Source: Agathobacter sp. (GTDB lineage: Bacteria; Bacillota; Clostridia; Lachnospirales; Lachnospiraceae). From it: DNA of 21,071 bases. The DNA lies in contig JAXJVZ010000292.1 in assembly GCA_036308285.1 (NCBI GenBank), forward strand, positions 1 through 21,071, read 5' to 3'. Shown here one piece after another: positions 18,261 to 19,598 of this stretch; positions within the stretch are counted from its first letter, which is position 1; every line of letters starts with the position of its first letter. A program made the position numbers and the translations under genes. The notes below the pieces were generated by a model. The model had not been told where the DNA came from. It did no database searches and saw nothing but the letters and a program-made list of their open reading frames with translations.

Positions 18261-18530
18261 ATGGCAAAGCCTAGAAAAACAGAAATGCACGATTTCTTTT
18301 GTCTCAAGTGTGGTAAGAAGGGACTGCCGGTTCATCGCCGACAGGGTCATCAGCATGGCAAGTACCATCGCAAGAAGCTATATTGCTTCTATTGTAAGGA
18401 AGAAGTAAATCATATGGAGTGCCGCAATCAAGCGGAAATTGATGAATTTAAGGACGCATTTGAGAGAGGAGAATTCATAGATGAAGCAGAAGAGAGTATT
18501 CGTTTTGTCCAGTCCGGCAGGATGCGGTAA
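18261..18530 (+). CDS. zinc-ribbon protein (CLKCG…CFYCKEEVNHMEC), basic
   Basis: A GAAAGGAAA RBS is 8 nt before the ATG at 18261. There are two CxxC pairs. The 3' end overlaps the next gene by 50 nt. Confidence 0.45.
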   Translation: MAKPRKTEMHDFFCLKCGKKGLPVHRRQGHQHGKYHRKKLYCFYCKEEVNHMECRNQAEIDEFKDAFERGEFIDEAEESIRFVQSGRMR

Positions 18531-18996
18531 AACCACTTGGGTTAAGAAGCAAATTGCTGAACATGGTGGTATTCATGTTTCTCGTGATGAAGTTCGCTTT
18601 TCTATGGTGAGTGAAGATGAAGATTATTTCGCTCATGAAGATGAAGTGTTTGCTGAGTGGATTCGTCAGTGCCAAGAGGCAATTGATGATGATGTAAATG
18701 AAGATATTTATATTGACGCAACTCATATCAGTGACCGCTCTCGAGCTAAGACTATTAACTCTCTTAACATTAACCGCGATGAAGTAATGCTGATTTGTGT
18801 GCGAGTAGTTGTTCCTATTGAAATTTGTAAATATAGAAACTCCTTGCGAGAGGGTCGCGCAAGAGTTCCCGATGAAGTAATTAGTAGTATGTATAAAAAT
18901 TTCTCTTATCCCTCTAAGAGATATAGCTGGGCTCCTAAGTTTGATGAAATTTGGGAAGTGAATGCTGAAGGCATTCTGGTAAATGAAAGGAGATGA
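18481..18996 (+). CDS. P-loop polynucleotide-kinase-like kinase (T4 Pnk kinase-domain-like; Walker A SSPAGCGKTTWV)
   Basis: The Walker A motif lies 10 aa from the N-terminus, as in the T4 Pnk kinase domain (GCPGSGKSTWA). Conserved acidic residues follow (…RDEV…, …DATH…). An AGAGGAG RBS lies 9 nt upstream. Confidence 0.55.
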   Translation: MKQKRVFVLSSPAGCGKTTWVKKQIAEHGGIHVSRDEVRFSMVSEDEDYFAHEDEVFAEWIRQCQEAIDDDVNEDIYIDATHISDRSRAKTINSLNINRDEVMLICVRVVVPIEICKYRNSLREGRARVPDEVISSMYKNFSYPSKRYSWAPKFDEIWEVNAEGILVNERR

Positions 18997-19006
18997 ATTA
19001 AAAGAA

Positions 19007-19598
19007 ATGAGTAAGATTTTTTTAACGTCCGATACTCATTTCGGTTGACCACGACCGAGAATTTCTGTGGGGACCTCGTGGTTTCACTAGCTCCCAGGAG
19101 CATGATGAAGCTATTATCAAAAACTGGAATGAAGTTGTCGGTCCCGATGATATTGTATATCATATGGGTGATTTGATGCTTGGCGATAATGCTCATGGCA
19201 TTGAATGTGTCAAGCGACTAAATGGTCATATTAAGCTAATTCGTGGTAATCATGATACTGATGCCCGATGGAAGCTGTATGCGACCCTGCCCAATGTTGA
19301 ACTGATTGGTTGGGCTGAGGTTATTAAATATAAGAAGTATCGGTTCTATCTGAGCCATCATCCTACGATGACTTCCAATTTGGAAAAGGCTCCCCACCTG
19401 CGCATGCATCTGATTAACTTGTACGGTCATACGCATCAGCCTAATAAGTTCTATCAGAGCACGCCTTTTATGTTCCATTGTGGTCTTGACTCCAATGGCA
19501 ACAAACCTGTATCTATTGATGATGCGATTGAAATGATGAAAGAAGAAACAAAGATTTGTTTATCTTTCCTCGGCGAAGAAGAAACCCCTAATGAATAA
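19007..19598 (+). CDS. calcineurin-like metallophosphoesterase split by a +1 frameshift at 19046 (frame A MSKIFLTSDTHFG-TGA; frame B DHDREFLWGPRGF…DEAIIKNWNEVVGPDDIVYHMGDLMLGD…GNHD…GHTHQ)
   Basis: Motif I (SDTHFG) is in the frame starting at the ATG at 19007, which hits TGA at 19046-19048. Motifs II-V continue in the +1 frame, open from 19026. Skipping one nucleotide (T19046) gives a canonical …TSDTHFG-DHDREFLWGPRGF… metallophosphoesterase. This could be programmed +1 frameshifting, a pseudogene or a sequence error. Confidence 0.5.

What the first reader, a model, noticed from the sequence alone, without database searches (positions are those of the whole stretch)
18481..19598. Split polynucleotide kinase-phosphatase (end-healing) pair: P-loop PNK-like kinase plus metallophosphoesterase
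A T4-Pnk-like kinase domain gene (18481-18996) is followed 10 nt later by a calcineurin-like phosphoesterase (19007-19598). That kinase-plus-MPE-phosphatase pairing is also used by bacterial Pnkp RNA-repair enzymes, which heal 5'-OH and 2',3'-cyclic-phosphate ends. In phages this activity repairs tRNAs cleaved by host anticodon nucleases (PrrC/RloC-type and other tRNA-targeting defences). No ligase is present in the window; it may be elsewhere in the genome, or a host RtcB-type ligase may be used. A small zinc-ribbon protein (18261-18530) overlaps the kinase gene start.
Basis: partly seen in the sequence, partly recalled or inferred. Interest (0 to 1): 0.6.

Follow-up and report, generated by a model that had tools for sequence, protein, structure and literature searches.

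The report
Phage RNA-repair genes with recoded phosphoesterase

Summary
ORF 18481-18996 is a Pnk-clade 5'-OH polynucleotide kinase; the residues essential in T4 Pnk have counterparts. A binuclear metallophosphoesterase (MPE) follows 10 nt later, and a Zn-ribbon gene overlaps the kinase start. Kinase-then-MPE is conserved in 98 of 116 related phage lineages. An ATP-dependent RNA ligase lies within 8 kb in at least 36 of 62. An RNA end-healing role is therefore well supported by context, though not proven.

- The MPE is aq_1665-like, not the lambda-phosphatase type of bacterial Pnkp. A lambda-type MPE sits at 16300-17016.
- No ligase lies from 18.5 kb upstream to 10 kb downstream in this lineage.
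- RtcB cannot join healed ends.

The frameshift is real. A 4-nt insertion (TGAC, 19046-19049) puts UGA after codon 13. It is present in nine assemblies, and the downstream frame is under purifying selection (pN/pS 0.03-0.2). Ten further independent alleles in relatives carry 4-7-nt insertions in the same three-codon window. All begin with a stop codon, and seven have matched codons flanking the stop. Four have a GIY-YIG homing endonuclease directly upstream.

Best reading: a T4 gene-60/mobA-like immunity scar decoded by a +1 shift or a short hop. This is untested.

The parts
17890..17954 (+). Copy of a 65-nt promoter-like repeat (TTGATT-17-TGnTATAAT at 17908-17936, followed by AAGTTAAGAAAGGA). 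Likely promoter of the operon membrane protein, Zn-ribbon, kinase, MPE, SPFH.
   Evidence: Eight copies in the window, each upstream of a gene block. Consensus scan scores 10 of 12 with an extended -10. Function is inferred.
18002..18217 (+). Small membrane protein, first gene of the operon.
   Evidence: ORF. PHROG 2169 'membrane protein' E=1.6e-4. Conserved in close relatives.
18252..18530 (+). Zn-ribbon protein (two CxxC pairs). Overlaps the kinase start by 50 nt. Conserved third component of the module.
   Evidence: PHROG 1257 E=7e-11. Present upstream of the kinase in 47 of 62 relatives with long flanks.
18481..18996 (+). 5'-OH polynucleotide kinase of the Pnk clade (P-loop kinase, stand-alone).
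   Evidence: AAA_33 E=1e-13 and PHROG 505 E=1e-16. The family profile's best solved relatives are T4 Pnk (7e-16), the C. thermocellum Pnkp kinase (1e-15) and PSTK (1e-14). K17/T18, D36, R39, R123 and V129-P130 align with T4 K15/S16, D35, R38, R126 and V131-P132.
19007..19048 (+). MPE gene, 5' segment. Thirteen codons (MSKIFLTSDTHFG, including motif I residues D9 and H11), then in-frame UGA.
   Evidence: Sequence. D9 and H11 are invariant in the family. Identical in nine assemblies.
19046..19049 (+). 4-nt insertion TGAC relative to intact alleles (HFG|HDREF). Creates 'GGU UGA C'. Proposed +1 shifty-stop or 4-nt hop site.
   Evidence: Intact relatives read GGT/GGA CAT GAY (L017-19, L033, L193). 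Ten other independent stop-containing insertions fall in the same 3-codon window.
19039..19060 (+). Predicted 9-bp hairpin (loop ACCA) spanning the take-off codon, the stop and the first downstream codons.
   Evidence: RNAfold: -21 kcal/mol for the 60-nt segment, z=-2.5. Also picked up by the stem-loop scan. Its role is inferred.
19050..19598 (+). MPE gene, 3' segment in the +1 frame (HDREF... to the stop). Carries H15, GD, GNHD, SHHP and GHTH. Gene callers report only 19164-19598 (144 aa).
   Evidence: Translation. Motif conservation. pN/pS 0.03-0.2 within the shifted clade. AlphaFold2 model of a 99%-identical intact homolog has pLDDT 88; best match aq_1665 (1XM7), TM 0.71.
19642..21071 (+). 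SPFH/Band-7 (flotillin-like) protein, last visible gene of the operon. Runs off the window; 506 aa in L001.
   Evidence: Band_7 E=5.5e-17. Found downstream of the MPE in 41 of 62 relatives.
16300..17016 (+). Second MPE, lambda-phosphatase/NinI type. This is the clade to which the bacterial Pnkp phosphatase belongs. Frequent neighbour of the module.
   Evidence: PHROG 246 E=3e-32. It also matches the middle of PHROG 8238, a 737-position family labelled 'RNA ligase'. Best solved relative is lambda phosphatase 1G5B, E=1.8e-7. Present in 40 of 62 relatives.
17020..17889 (+). HNH homing endonuclease (NUMOD4-HNH_3-NUMOD4-HNH_3-NUMOD1) with four in-frame TAG codons. Present in only 2 of the 9 contigs of this lineage.
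   Evidence: Translation. Pfam with TAG read as Q: NUMOD4 E=2e-25, HNH_3 E=7e-16. Presence or absence in other contigs.
10596..11408 (+). Pol-beta-type nucleotidyltransferase, weakly RlaP-like. A recurrent neighbour of the module.
   Evidence: PHROG 388 E=6e-19. RlaP PF10127 E=2e-4, below the curated cut-off. Homologs near the pair in L009, L011, L013, L014 and L015.

Best explanation
The operon. Genes 18002-21071 form one operon of a TAG-recoded gut phage: membrane protein, Zn-ribbon, kinase, MPE, SPFH. The host is probably a member of Bacillota.

The proposed repair pathway. The kinase is a Pnk-type enzyme that phosphorylates 5'-OH ends of broken RNA. The adjacent aq_1665-type binuclear metallophosphoesterase is inferred to remove the 2',3'-cyclic or 3'-phosphate. 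The resulting 5'-P and 3'-OH ends can then be sealed by an ATP-dependent RNA ligase. In most relatives that ligase is encoded a few kb away. In this lineage its slot is occupied by a NAMPT-macro-NadE cassette, and the ligase is either elsewhere in the genome or absent.

The interrupted MPE gene. A 4-nt insertion (TGAC) places UGA after codon 13, between the metal ligands D9/H11 and H15. This is most likely the scar or immunity mark of a homing-endonuclease cassette, as in T4 mobA/gene 60. Full-length enzyme would then be made only by ribosomes that shift +1 at GGU UGA C, or that hop 4 nt onto GAC. That would give DTHFG(D)HDREF, probably at a low level.

What is shown and what is inferred.
- Shown: gene identities, conservation of the module, reality and recurrence of the insertions, purifying selection, and the association with homing endonucleases.
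- Inferred: the substrates, the recoding event and its efficiency, and the immunity role.

My estimates are about 0.75 for the RNA end-healing role and about 0.55 for translational recoding.
For: Kinase.
- The family profile's best solved relatives are T4 Pnk, the CthPnkp kinase, PSTK and Pnkp1. Gluconate kinase appears only at E=0.005.
- Counterparts of residues essential in T4 Pnk are conserved.

Module.
- Kinase-then-MPE in 98 of 116 clusters.
- In 62 clusters with at least 5 kb on each side: Zn-ribbon 47, RNA ligase 36, SPFH 41, lambda-type phosphatase 40.
- The ligases are PF09414 with a PHA02142 OB domain. DUF2828/DUF7788 and DUF5662 are also linked.
- Comparative-genomics papers place calcineurin-like phosphoesterases alongside polynucleotide kinases in phage RNA repair (PMC7824862; PMC9503650).

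Insertion in this lineage.
- It is identical in nine assemblies.
- The window versus L003 differs by 18 synonymous and 2 non-synonymous changes downstream of the site.
- The truncated product cluster has 75 sequence variants.

Recurrence across lineages.
- Eleven independent alleles occur among 221 clusters, all between the H11 and H15 codons, and all start with a stop codon.
- Each allele is closest to an intact allele, not to another interrupted one.
- Seven have identical or synonymous codons flanking the stop: GGT TAA GGT, GGT TAA A GGT, CTT TAA CTA, CAT TAG G CAT, CAC TGA C CAT, CAT TAG CAT and TTC TAG TTT. Hopping would restore the canonical D-x-H-x-x-H spacing.
- Three are 'stop + C' (TGAC, TAGC, TAGC).
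- Only 2 of 184 loci have any other disruption of the gene.

Homing endonuclease link.
- A GIY-YIG homing endonuclease lies directly upstream of the MPE in 4 interrupted alleles, against 3 of 178 intact clusters (Fisher p=3e-5).
- The near-isogenic pair L307/L181 differs by the endonuclease gene, the 4-nt insertion and a short tract of substitutions between them.
- In L304 versus L302, homology resumes exactly at the His15 codon.
- For the T4 precedent.
Against: - No biochemical data exist for this MPE clade. Its closest structure, aq_1665, has no known function.
- No ligase lies between -18.5 kb and +10 kb in this lineage.
- The window's site lacks features of efficient +1 frameshifting. GGU re-pairs poorly with GUU, there is no upstream Shine-Dalgarno-like element, and there is no matched landing codon.
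- No GIY-YIG endonuclease is adjacent in this lineage. Only 2 of 9 contigs carry an HNH endonuclease, about 1.2 kb upstream.
- Recombination with intact alleles could keep the downstream frame looking selected even if it were untranslated.
- One contig of the clade (L005) has an additional internal stop.
- The endonuclease queries were taken from interrupted loci, which inflates the association.
- In-frame TAG alleles (L224, L351) could be plain sense codons if their phages read TAG as an amino acid.
Confidence: 0.6

Rival explanations
1. The MPE of this lineage is a dead gene. The insertion is a homing-endonuclease scar, or a selected knock-out, and ribosomes do not bypass it. The kinase then works alone, or with the lambda-type phosphatase at 16300-17016.
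For: - The window's site has a poor +1 re-pairing codon and no stimulator that I could recognise.
- Intact alleles outnumber the truncated cluster, 279 against 75 variants.
- L005 has a second stop.
- A second MPE of the clade with demonstrated 2',3'-cyclic phosphodiesterase activity (PMC2190708, listed) is present nearby.
- This lineage also lacks the neighbouring ligase.
Against: - pN/pS is 0.03-0.2 with up to 16% synonymous divergence among alleles that all keep the insertion.
- Random knock-outs would be scattered, yet 11 of 13 disruption events lie in one 3-codon window and all begin with a stop.
- Matched take-off and landing codons in 7 of 11 alleles have no explanation under simple loss of function.
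- The start codon and the DxH motif of the 13-codon segment are intact in every allele.
Confidence: 0.27
2. The kinase-MPE pair does not repair RNA. It acts on DNA ends, on nucleotide second messengers, or on NAD/ADP-ribose-derived metabolites of the adjacent NAMPT-macro-NadE-NADAR cassette.
For: - T4 Pnk also acts on DNA (established knowledge).
- Calcineurin-like phosphodiesterases are predicted signal degraders in some phages (PMC7824862).
- In this lineage the module sits beside an NAD+ cassette and not beside a ligase.
Against: - In relatives the pair travels with RNA ligases, DUF2828/vWA and RlaP-like nucleotidyltransferases.
- The NAD cassette is a separate promoter unit and is present in only 14 of 73 lineages.
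- The kinase keeps the residues that hold the 3'-phosphate of a 5'-terminal nucleotide, R39 being the counterpart of T4 R38.
Confidence: 0.1
3. The frameshift is a sequencing or assembly error, and the gene is intact in the real phage.
For: A single window cannot exclude an indel error. Near-identical intact alleles exist (L033 98%, P0001 99%).
Against: - The same 4-nt insertion occurs in eight further assemblies from different samples and assemblers, with linked sequence variation.
- It is a 4-nt insertion, not a homopolymer slip.
- 75 variants of the truncated product are on record.
Confidence: 0.01

Closest known systems
Phage T4 polynucleotide kinase-phosphatase (Pnkp) with Rnl1, the PrrC counter-defence
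   Same: The kinase domain is homologous (profile E=7e-16). Counterparts of K15/S16, D35, R38, R126 and the V131-P132 base pocket are present. It is encoded by a phage, and ATP-dependent RNA ligases are linked to it in relatives.
   Different: The kinase stands alone. There is no fused HAD (DxDxT) phosphatase. The phosphatase candidate is a separate binuclear MPE. No ligase lies within 18.5 kb upstream or 10 kb downstream here.
Bacterial Pnkp-Hen1 (Clostridium thermocellum Pnkp: kinase, lambda-type MPE, ligase)
   Same: It combines a Pnk-type kinase with a metallophosphoesterase. The CthPnkp kinase is as close as T4 Pnk (E=1e-15), with an identical 'DAT' motif.
   Different: The adjacent MPE belongs to another clade (aq_1665, MJ0936, YfcE). 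The proteins are split, there is no ligase domain, and no Hen1 is present in the window. The lambda-type MPE is a separate gene in another promoter unit.
T4 gene 60 translational bypass with the mobA homing endonuclease cassette
   Same: - A stop codon lies immediately 3' of a take-off codon.
- Take-off and landing codons are matched in 7 of 11 alleles.
- The insertion sits in a highly conserved coding stretch.
- A homing endonuclease gene lies next to it.
- HEG+/HEG- pairs differ by the endonuclease gene plus the insertion plus a co-conversion tract.
   Different: - The gap is 4-7 nt rather than 50 nt.
- The site is at codon 12-14, so no long nascent-peptide signal is possible.
- The endonuclease is GIY-YIG, not the MobA type.
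- The target is an MPE, not topoisomerase.
- The window's own allele has no matched landing codon and no adjacent GIY-YIG gene.
- Nothing has been tested experimentally.
prfB (RF2) +1 'shifty stop' frameshift, CUU UGA C
   Same: An in-frame UGA is followed by C. The required shift is +1. Both frames are conserved.
   Different: The P-site codon GGU cannot re-pair well in the +1 frame. There is no Shine-Dalgarno-like stimulator 3 nt upstream.
Synthetic 'stop-hops' in E. coli (Weiss, Dunn, Atkins and Gesteland 1987, as reviewed in PMC5009743)
   Same: The relatives' alleles have the same architecture: matched codons flanking a stop, for example CUU UAA CUA and GGU UAA GGU.
   Different: Those were engineered constructs with low efficiency. 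The 2016 review states that no natural in-frame stop-hops are known.
Aquifex aeolicus aq_1665 (PDB 1XM7), an uncharacterised MPE
   Same: It is the closest solved relative of the MPE by sequence profile (E=1e-12) and by fold (TM 0.71-0.74).
   Different: It has no known function, so the match says nothing about substrate.

Membership tests
Pnk-clade 5'-OH polynucleotide kinases (T4 Pnk / CthPnk) | P-loop GxxxxGK[ST] that binds the NTP beta-phosphate | tested here: met
   SPAGCGKT. G14, G16 and K17 are invariant in 13 relatives and align with T4 GSGKS.
Pnk-clade 5'-OH polynucleotide kinases (T4 Pnk / CthPnk) | General-base Asp and the Arg that holds the 3'-phosphate of the 5'-terminal nucleotide (T4 D35, R38) | tested here: met
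   S34-R35-D36-E37-V38-R39 aligns with T4 N-R34-D35-D36-Y37-R38. R39 is invariant and D36 is at least 90% conserved.
Pnk-clade 5'-OH polynucleotide kinases (T4 Pnk / CthPnk) | Lid Arg that contacts the NTP beta-phosphate (T4 R126) and the nucleobase pocket (V131-P132) | tested here: met
   R123, G125 and V129-P130 align with T4 R126, G127 and V131-P132.
Pnk-clade 5'-OH polynucleotide kinases (T4 Pnk / CthPnk) | Essential Asp85 and important Glu57 of T4 | tested here: inconclusive
   Invariant D79 (motif DAT, identical to the CthPnk motif) aligns one position off T4 D85. Invariant E53 aligns two positions off T4 E57.
Pnk-clade 5'-OH polynucleotide kinases (T4 Pnk / CthPnk) | Kinase activity on 5'-OH RNA or DNA | not testable with these tools
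   Requires an enzyme assay.
T4-type bifunctional Pnkp | C-terminal HAD (DxDxT) 3'-phosphatase fused to the kinase | tested here: not met
   The protein is 171 aa and contains the kinase domain only. It matches positions 4-145 of the 295-position PHROG 505 profile.
Bacterial Pnkp (of Pnkp-Hen1) | Lambda-phosphatase-type binuclear MPE as the 2',3'-phosphatase | tested here: not met
   The adjacent MPE's best solved relatives are aq_1665, MJ0936, YfcE and Mre11. No lambda-phosphatase or CthPnkp phosphatase appears among the listed matches. Gene 16300-17016 does hit lambda phosphatase 1G5B, but it is a separate transcription unit.
Bacterial Pnkp (of Pnkp-Hen1) | Ligase (adenylyltransferase) domain and a Hen1 methyltransferase partner | tested here: not met
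   None is present in the window or within 10 kb downstream. A SAM-methyltransferase of unknown family abuts the kinase in L010-L013 only.
Calcineurin-like binuclear metallophosphoesterases | Motifs DxH, GD, GNH[DE], H and GHxH, all present | tested here: met
   D9/H11 lie in the 5' segment. G54-D55, G80-N81-H82-D83, H117 and G140-H141-x-H143 lie in the 3' segment (numbering of the joined sequence with the extra Asp). All are present only if the two frames are joined.
prfB-type programmed +1 frameshift | In-frame UGA in a weak (C) context at the shift site | tested here: met
   GGT TGA C at 19043-19049.
prfB-type programmed +1 frameshift | P-site codon that re-pairs in the +1 frame, and an upstream Shine-Dalgarno-like stimulator | tested here: not met
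   GGU to GUU gives a middle-position mismatch. No GGAGG-like element lies within the 15 nt upstream.
Translational bypass (T4 gene 60 type) / stop-hop | Matched take-off and landing codons flanking a stop | tested here: inconclusive
   Met in 7 of 11 alleles in relatives. Not met in the window, where the only candidate landing codon is near-cognate: GAC for tRNA-Gly.
Translational bypass (T4 gene 60 type) / stop-hop | Stem-loop at the take-off site | tested here: inconclusive
   A 9-bp hairpin is predicted at 19039-19060 (z=-2.5). The 6-7-nt alleles show no comparable structure.
Translational bypass (T4 gene 60 type) / stop-hop | Linkage to a homing endonuclease that the insertion protects against | tested here: inconclusive
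   Linkage is shown in relatives (Fisher p=3e-5; HEG+/HEG- pairs). This lineage has no adjacent GIY-YIG gene. Protection itself cannot be tested here.
RlaP nucleotidyltransferases (PF10127), for gene 10596-11408 | Score above the Pfam gathering threshold | tested here: not met
   21.5 bits against a cut-off of 23, E=2e-4. It can only be called RlaP-like.

The most novel reading that the evidence does not exclude
Gut phages of Bacillota carry a family of mobile cassettes. Each cassette is a GIY-YIG homing endonuclease plus a 4-7-nt insertion containing a stop codon, and it targets one conserved catalytic-motif site of an RNA-repair phosphoesterase gene. The insertions are natural minimal recoding signals: 'stop-hops' with matched take-off and landing codons, and 'stop + C' shifty stops, as in this window. 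They let ribosomes restore the enzyme while blocking re-cleavage of the DNA. This would be the second system of the T4 mobA/gene-60 kind. It would also provide the first natural stop-hops, which a 2016 review listed as unknown.
Probability: 0.5. Interest if true: 0.85.

Novelty: new variant of a known kind. Interest (0 to 1): 0.7.

Why it matters
The gene pair. It adds a widespread, biochemically untouched end-healing module to the phage RNA-repair repertoire: Zn-ribbon, Pnk kinase and an aq_1665-type MPE. Hundreds of relatives exist in gut and rumen phages. The pair also gives the orphan aq_1665 family its first functional context.

The interrupted MPE. This matters more. Programmed bypassing has rested almost entirely on T4 gene 60 and yeast mitochondria, and natural stop-hops have been postulated but never found. 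Here there are eleven independent, sequence-diverse alleles at one site. They use three different stop codons and four different take-off codons. HEG+/HEG- near-isogenic pairs are also available. Together they offer a ready-made comparative series for testing two things: what minimal sequence lets a ribosome skip a stop, and whether homing endonucleases drive the origin of recoding signals.

Annotation. Gene callers systematically report such genes as N-terminally truncated. In this lineage the MPE is reported as a 144-aa product.

Tried and rejected
Searches that found nothing:
- DNA searches of the window against GenBank phages.
- ARAGORN found no tRNA and Rfam found no RNA family in the window, so no tRNA-like or Y-RNA partner and no suppressor tRNA is visible here.

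Looking for the ligase in the rest of this phage's genome failed:
- The exact-protein look-up for the first window gene returned only 2-kb contigs.
- Contigs carrying the kinase or a 97%-identical intact MPE reach only about 10 kb to either side.
- No ligase homolog was found there by tblastn or in the precomputed Pfam hits.

Alternative readings of the frameshift that I rejected:
- Transcriptional slippage on the T7 run at 19017-19023. Deleting one T creates TAA, and D9/H11 must be read in the first frame (sequence).
- Stop-codon reassignment. Reading UGA as sense leads to further stops in that frame.
- Re-initiation in the second frame. There is no ATG, GTG or TTG in that frame between 19026 and 19164, and the product would lack D9/H11.

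Other dead ends:
- The nucleoside/NMP-kinase reading. Only weak partial hits to guanylate kinase, and no AAA_28/NadR hit.
- A crude ORF-length heuristic to decide which related phages read TAG as sense did not discriminate.
I used a 99%-identical database homolog instead.
- The Burroughs and Aravind 2016 RNA-repair survey is not held in the library. Statements about SPFH and DUF2828 as RNA-repair scaffolds rest on my memory of that paper and on later papers that cite it.
- The HNH endonuclease at 17020-17889 is not consistently linked to the insertion in this lineage; only 2 of 9 contigs carry it.
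Full report
**What is at the coordinates**

- ORF 18481-18996 (171 aa) matches Pfam AAA_33 (E=1e-13) and PHROG 505 'polynucleotide kinase' (E=1e-16) over the kinase half of that profile.
- Ten nucleotides after its stop, ATG 19007 opens MSKIFLTSDTHFG followed by TGA.
- The +1 frame continues from 19050 as HDREFLWGPRGF... to 19598.
- The joined sequence matches Metallophos_2 (E=7e-10) and PHROG 547 'phosphoesterase' (E=4e-44).
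- The Zn-ribbon ORF 18252/18261-18530 overlaps the kinase start and matches PHROG 1257.

A 65-nt promoter-like repeat occurs eight times in the window, each time in front of a gene block. The copy at 17890-17954 precedes membrane protein, Zn-ribbon, kinase, MPE and SPFH (TTGATT-17-TGnTATAAT; 10 of 12 consensus positions). These five genes therefore look like one operon.

**The kinase**

I built a profile from 13 relatives that are 31-42% identical to the window protein. Its best solved matches are:
- T4 Pnk, E=7e-16
- the kinase domain of Clostridium thermocellum Pnkp, E=1e-15
- phosphoseryl-tRNA kinase, E=1e-14
- Pnkp1, E=2e-11
- mammalian PNKP, E=3.5e-7

Gluconate kinase appears only at E=0.005.

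Six residues are essential in T4 Pnk: K15, S16, D35, R38, D85 and R126 (PMC2831316). In the HMM alignment:
- K17/T18, D36, R39 and R123 are their counterparts and are conserved in the family.
- V129-P130 match the T4 nucleobase pocket V131-P132.
- D79 sits in a 'DAT' motif identical to CthPnk and aligns one position off T4 D85.

I found nothing that favours a nucleoside or NMP kinase. There were only weak partial hits to guanylate kinase and no NadR-type hit. Activity itself was not testable here.

**The phosphoesterase**

All binuclear-metal motifs are present, but only when the two frames are joined (D9, H11, H15, GD, GNHD, SHHP, GHTH).

It is not the lambda-phosphatase-type domain of bacterial Pnkp.
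- By sequence profile the only clear solved relative is Aquifex aq_1665 (1XM7, E=1e-12), a protein of unknown function.
- An AlphaFold2 model of a 99%-identical intact homolog (pLDDT 88) matches 1XM7 (TM 0.71-0.74). MJ0936, YfcE, Mre11 and LpxH follow.

The lambda-type MPE of this region is a different gene, 16300-17016.
- It matches PHROG 246, NinI-like.
- It also matches the middle of PHROG 8238, a 737-position family labelled 'RNA ligase'.
- Its best PDB hit is lambda phosphatase 1G5B, E=1.8e-7.
- It lies behind its own promoter copy.

**Is the pairing meaningful?**

I collected 331 related loci from viral, metagenomic and genomic collections. They fall into 221 clusters at 95% nucleotide identity. 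The counts below come from the first 188 loci (127 clusters), analysed.
- The kinase lies directly upstream of the MPE in 98 of 116 clusters with enough upstream sequence.
- Among 62 clusters with at least 5 kb on both sides, the module is accompanied by the Zn-ribbon in 47, an SPFH protein in 41, the lambda-type phosphatase in 40 and PhoH in 47.
- It is accompanied by an RNA ligase in at least 36. This was scored by tblastn with three ligase types, so it is a lower bound.
- The ligases carry PF09414 with a PHA02142 OB domain. DUF2828/DUF7788 (vWA), DUF5662, a SAM-methyltransferase and Pol-beta nucleotidyltransferases recur as well.

Published comparative genomics describes this grammar for phage RNA repair: ligase, kinase, phosphoesterase, nucleotidyltransferase and scaffolds. 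It notes that calcineurin-like domains replace the usual HAD phosphatase in a minority of large phages (PMC7824862; PMC9503650). RlaP enzymes add one or two nucleotides to damaged RNA 3' ends (PMC12776372). The window's nucleotidyltransferase is only weakly RlaP-like, scoring below the Pfam cut-off.

The end-healing reading is therefore well supported by context, at about 0.75. The substrate of this MPE clade is unproven.

**Ligase**

None is present in the window, nor within 10 kb downstream or upstream in contigs of the same lineage.

In relatives the ligase sits upstream of the module. In L009 it lies between the nucleotidyltransferase and NADAR. In this lineage that interval holds NAMPT, macro and NadE. 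Across 73 clusters with at least 7 kb of upstream sequence, 30 have a ligase, 14 have NAMPT and none has both. The ligase may be elsewhere in the genome or lost.

RtcB needs 3'-P or 2',3'>P plus 5'-OH, which are the very ends that healing destroys (my own knowledge of the enzymology).

**The frameshift is real and selected**

The exact kinase protein is encoded on 15 public contigs. In every contig that reaches the MPE, the gene was called as the 144-aa fragment. The window and eight of these assemblies share 'CAT TTC GGT TGA C CAC GAC'. Intact relatives read HFG-HDREF. These are L017-19 (86% amino-acid identity), L033 (98%), L193 (97%) and P0001 (99%). The window therefore carries a 4-nt insertion, TGAC.

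Among the alleles with the insertion, the downstream frame shows 18 synonymous against 2 non-synonymous differences for the window versus L003 (pS 0.16, pN/pS 0.03). Other pairs give 0.02-0.27. The truncated product cluster holds 75 sequence variants and the intact cluster 279.

Two caveats apply. Recombination with intact alleles could mimic selection, and mosaicism is evident: a divergent patch at 18700-19080 against L033 ends about 30 nt beyond the insertion. One low-quality contig, L005, has a second stop.

**The same site is hit again and again**

Among the 221 clusters I found eleven independent interrupted alleles. All lie between the H11 and H15 codons, and all begin with a stop codon.

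| Allele | Sequence at the site |
|---|---|
| window | GGT TGA C, then CAC |
| L010/L011 | TGT TAG C, then CAT |
| L307/L310 | GGT TAG C, then CAT |
| L014 | CAT TAG C TAT |
| L206 | CAT TAG G CAT |
| L304/L342 | CAC TGA C CAT |
| L351 | CAT TAG CAT |
| L022 | GGT TAA GGT |
| L082 | GGT TAA A GGT |
| L147 | CTT TAA CTA |
| L224 | TTC TAG TTT |

- Each allele is closest to an intact allele (53-99% amino-acid identity). The interrupted alleles are only about 40-67% identical to one another, so their origins are independent.
- Elsewhere in the gene only 2 of 184 loci are disrupted.
- In seven alleles the codon after the stop, at offset 0 or 1, is identical or synonymous to the codon before it. 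An eighth (L014) is near-cognate. By my rough estimate of at most 0.12 per allele, the chance of seven or more is about 1e-4.
- In every such case, moving the peptidyl-tRNA from the first codon to the second restores the canonical D-x-H-x-x-H spacing. This holds for the three 7-nt alleles too, where read-through could not help.
- The remaining three, including the window, are 'stop + C'. That is the context of the prfB shifty stop.

The architecture is that of the synthetic 'stop-hops' and 'shifty stops' of Weiss et al. 1987. A 2016 review states that no natural in-frame stop-hops are known (PMC5009743).

**Link to homing endonucleases**

- A GIY-YIG/NUMOD endonuclease of one family (46-61% identical between copies) lies between the kinase and the MPE in L082, L224, L304/L342 and L307/L310. 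All of these are interrupted.
- The clusters divide as follows. Interrupted alleles: 5 with an adjacent endonuclease and 8 without. Intact alleles: 3 with and 175 without. Fisher p=3e-5.
- Two biases affect this test. One allele is counted twice, and the endonuclease queries came from interrupted loci.
- L307 and L181 are 95-97% identical in DNA and 99.4% in MPE protein. They differ by an ~800-nt endonuclease insertion, the TAGC insertion about 60 nt downstream, and a cluster of substitutions between the two.
- In L304 versus L302, homology resumes exactly at the His15 codon.

This mirrors T4 mobA/gene 60. There the bypass insert in a conserved coding stretch protects the element-bearing genome from its own endonuclease.

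The window's lineage has no GIY-YIG gene at this position. Two of its nine contigs have an HNH endonuclease 1.2 kb upstream. The insertion here may be a relic of a 'hit and run' event.

**How the window's site would work (inferred)**

The ribosome would pause with peptidyl-tRNA-Gly on GGU and the weak terminator UGA-C in the A site. There are then two possibilities:
- tRNA-Asp reads the +1 codon GAC, giving DTHFG-D-HDREF.
- The tRNA-Gly re-pairs four bases on at GAC, with a middle mismatch, giving DTHFG-HDREF.

A predicted 9-bp hairpin (19039-19060, loop ACCA) spans the site. The other two 4-nt alleles can form analogous hairpins by eye. Efficiency is probably low, because GGU re-pairs poorly and there is no Shine-Dalgarno-like stimulator. 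I put recoding at about 0.55 and a dead gene at about 0.27.

**Verdict**

As an end-healing pair this is a new member of a known kind. The interrupted phosphoesterase, set beside its ten sister alleles and their endonucleases, is the unexpected part and deserves experimental follow-up.

Noticed in passing
window 1886-2755, 2742-3758, 8122-9057, 17020-17889: The phage appears to read TAG as a sense codon. Four AT-rich accessory genes contain 18 in-frame TAGs: an NPPF-motif methyltransferase-like gene, a GmrSD_N/DUF262 gene, a DUF2726 gene and the HNH endonuclease. The TAGs fall at positions where the domain models expect residues. None of 23 genes ends in TAG (20 TAA, 3 TGA). The 41-47% GC core genes contain no TAG. 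No suppressor tRNA is in the window.
   Followed up: partly
window 50-114, 754-818, 3752-3816, 7376-7440, 10459-10523, 12782-12846, 16028-16092, 17890-17954: Eight copies of a 65-nt element: TTGATT, a 17-nt spacer, an extended -10 TGnTATAAT, then AAGTTAAGAAAGGA. Each lies in front of a gene block and probably marks the phage's own strong promoters. They divide the window into transcription units.
   Followed up: partly
window 12865-16035: NAD+ counter-defence cassette: NAMPT, a macro domain (DarG-like), NAD synthase NadE and NADAR. In related phages it is mutually exclusive with the RNA ligase upstream of the kinase-MPE module: 14 against 30 clusters, none with both.
   Followed up: partly
window 3833-6346: An 837-aa protein with Major Vault Protein shoulder and vault-repeat domains (PF11978 E=1e-17, PF17795 E=2e-8). 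It is conserved at 56-63% identity in relatives L014, L020 and L224. An unusual protein for a phage, and its function is unknown.
   Followed up: no
window 7994-9362: A truncated duplicate of the 5' end of the cREC gene (MKLWIDDLRDPP..., from 7994) precedes a TAG-rich DUF2726 gene (8122-9057), which is followed by the intact cREC_REC gene (9057-9362). L001 lacks the insert. This looks like another mobile-element insertion that duplicated its target's 5' end.
   Followed up: partly
L082 6186-6950; L224 7028-7960; L304/L342 and L307/L310, centred about 420-620 nt upstream of the recoding site; L140 7270-7968: A family of GIY-YIG/NUMOD homing endonucleases is inserted precisely between the kinase and MPE genes in several phages. 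The L082 copy itself has five in-frame TAGs. L140, L056, L317 and L323 have an adjacent GIY-YIG gene but an intact MPE site, and could show how immunity is achieved without an insertion.
   Followed up: partly
window 18700-19080 versus L033; kinase genes of L193 and L033: The kinase gene is strongly mosaic in this phage population. Alleles differ by about 30-50% in all or half of the gene, while the neighbouring MPE stays 97-98% identical. One recombination boundary lies about 30 nt 3' of the TGAC insertion.
   Followed up: partly
L022 3273-6326: In a related phage the DNA gyrase/topoisomerase B gene is split by a GIY-YIG endonuclease gene (4967-5791). In L014, L019 and L023 the PhoH-like gene downstream of the module is broken into 2-3 ORFs. 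More interrupted genes may exist in these phages.
   Followed up: no
window 18481-18996 (protein identical to MEE1028632.1): The exact kinase protein is deposited as 'MAG: AAA family ATPase [Agathobacter sp.]'. Related MPE loci sit in MAGs labelled Lachnospiraceae, Acutalibacteraceae, Oscillospiraceae and Bacilli from gut and rumen. This hints at Bacillota hosts, but binning of phage contigs is unreliable.
   Followed up: no
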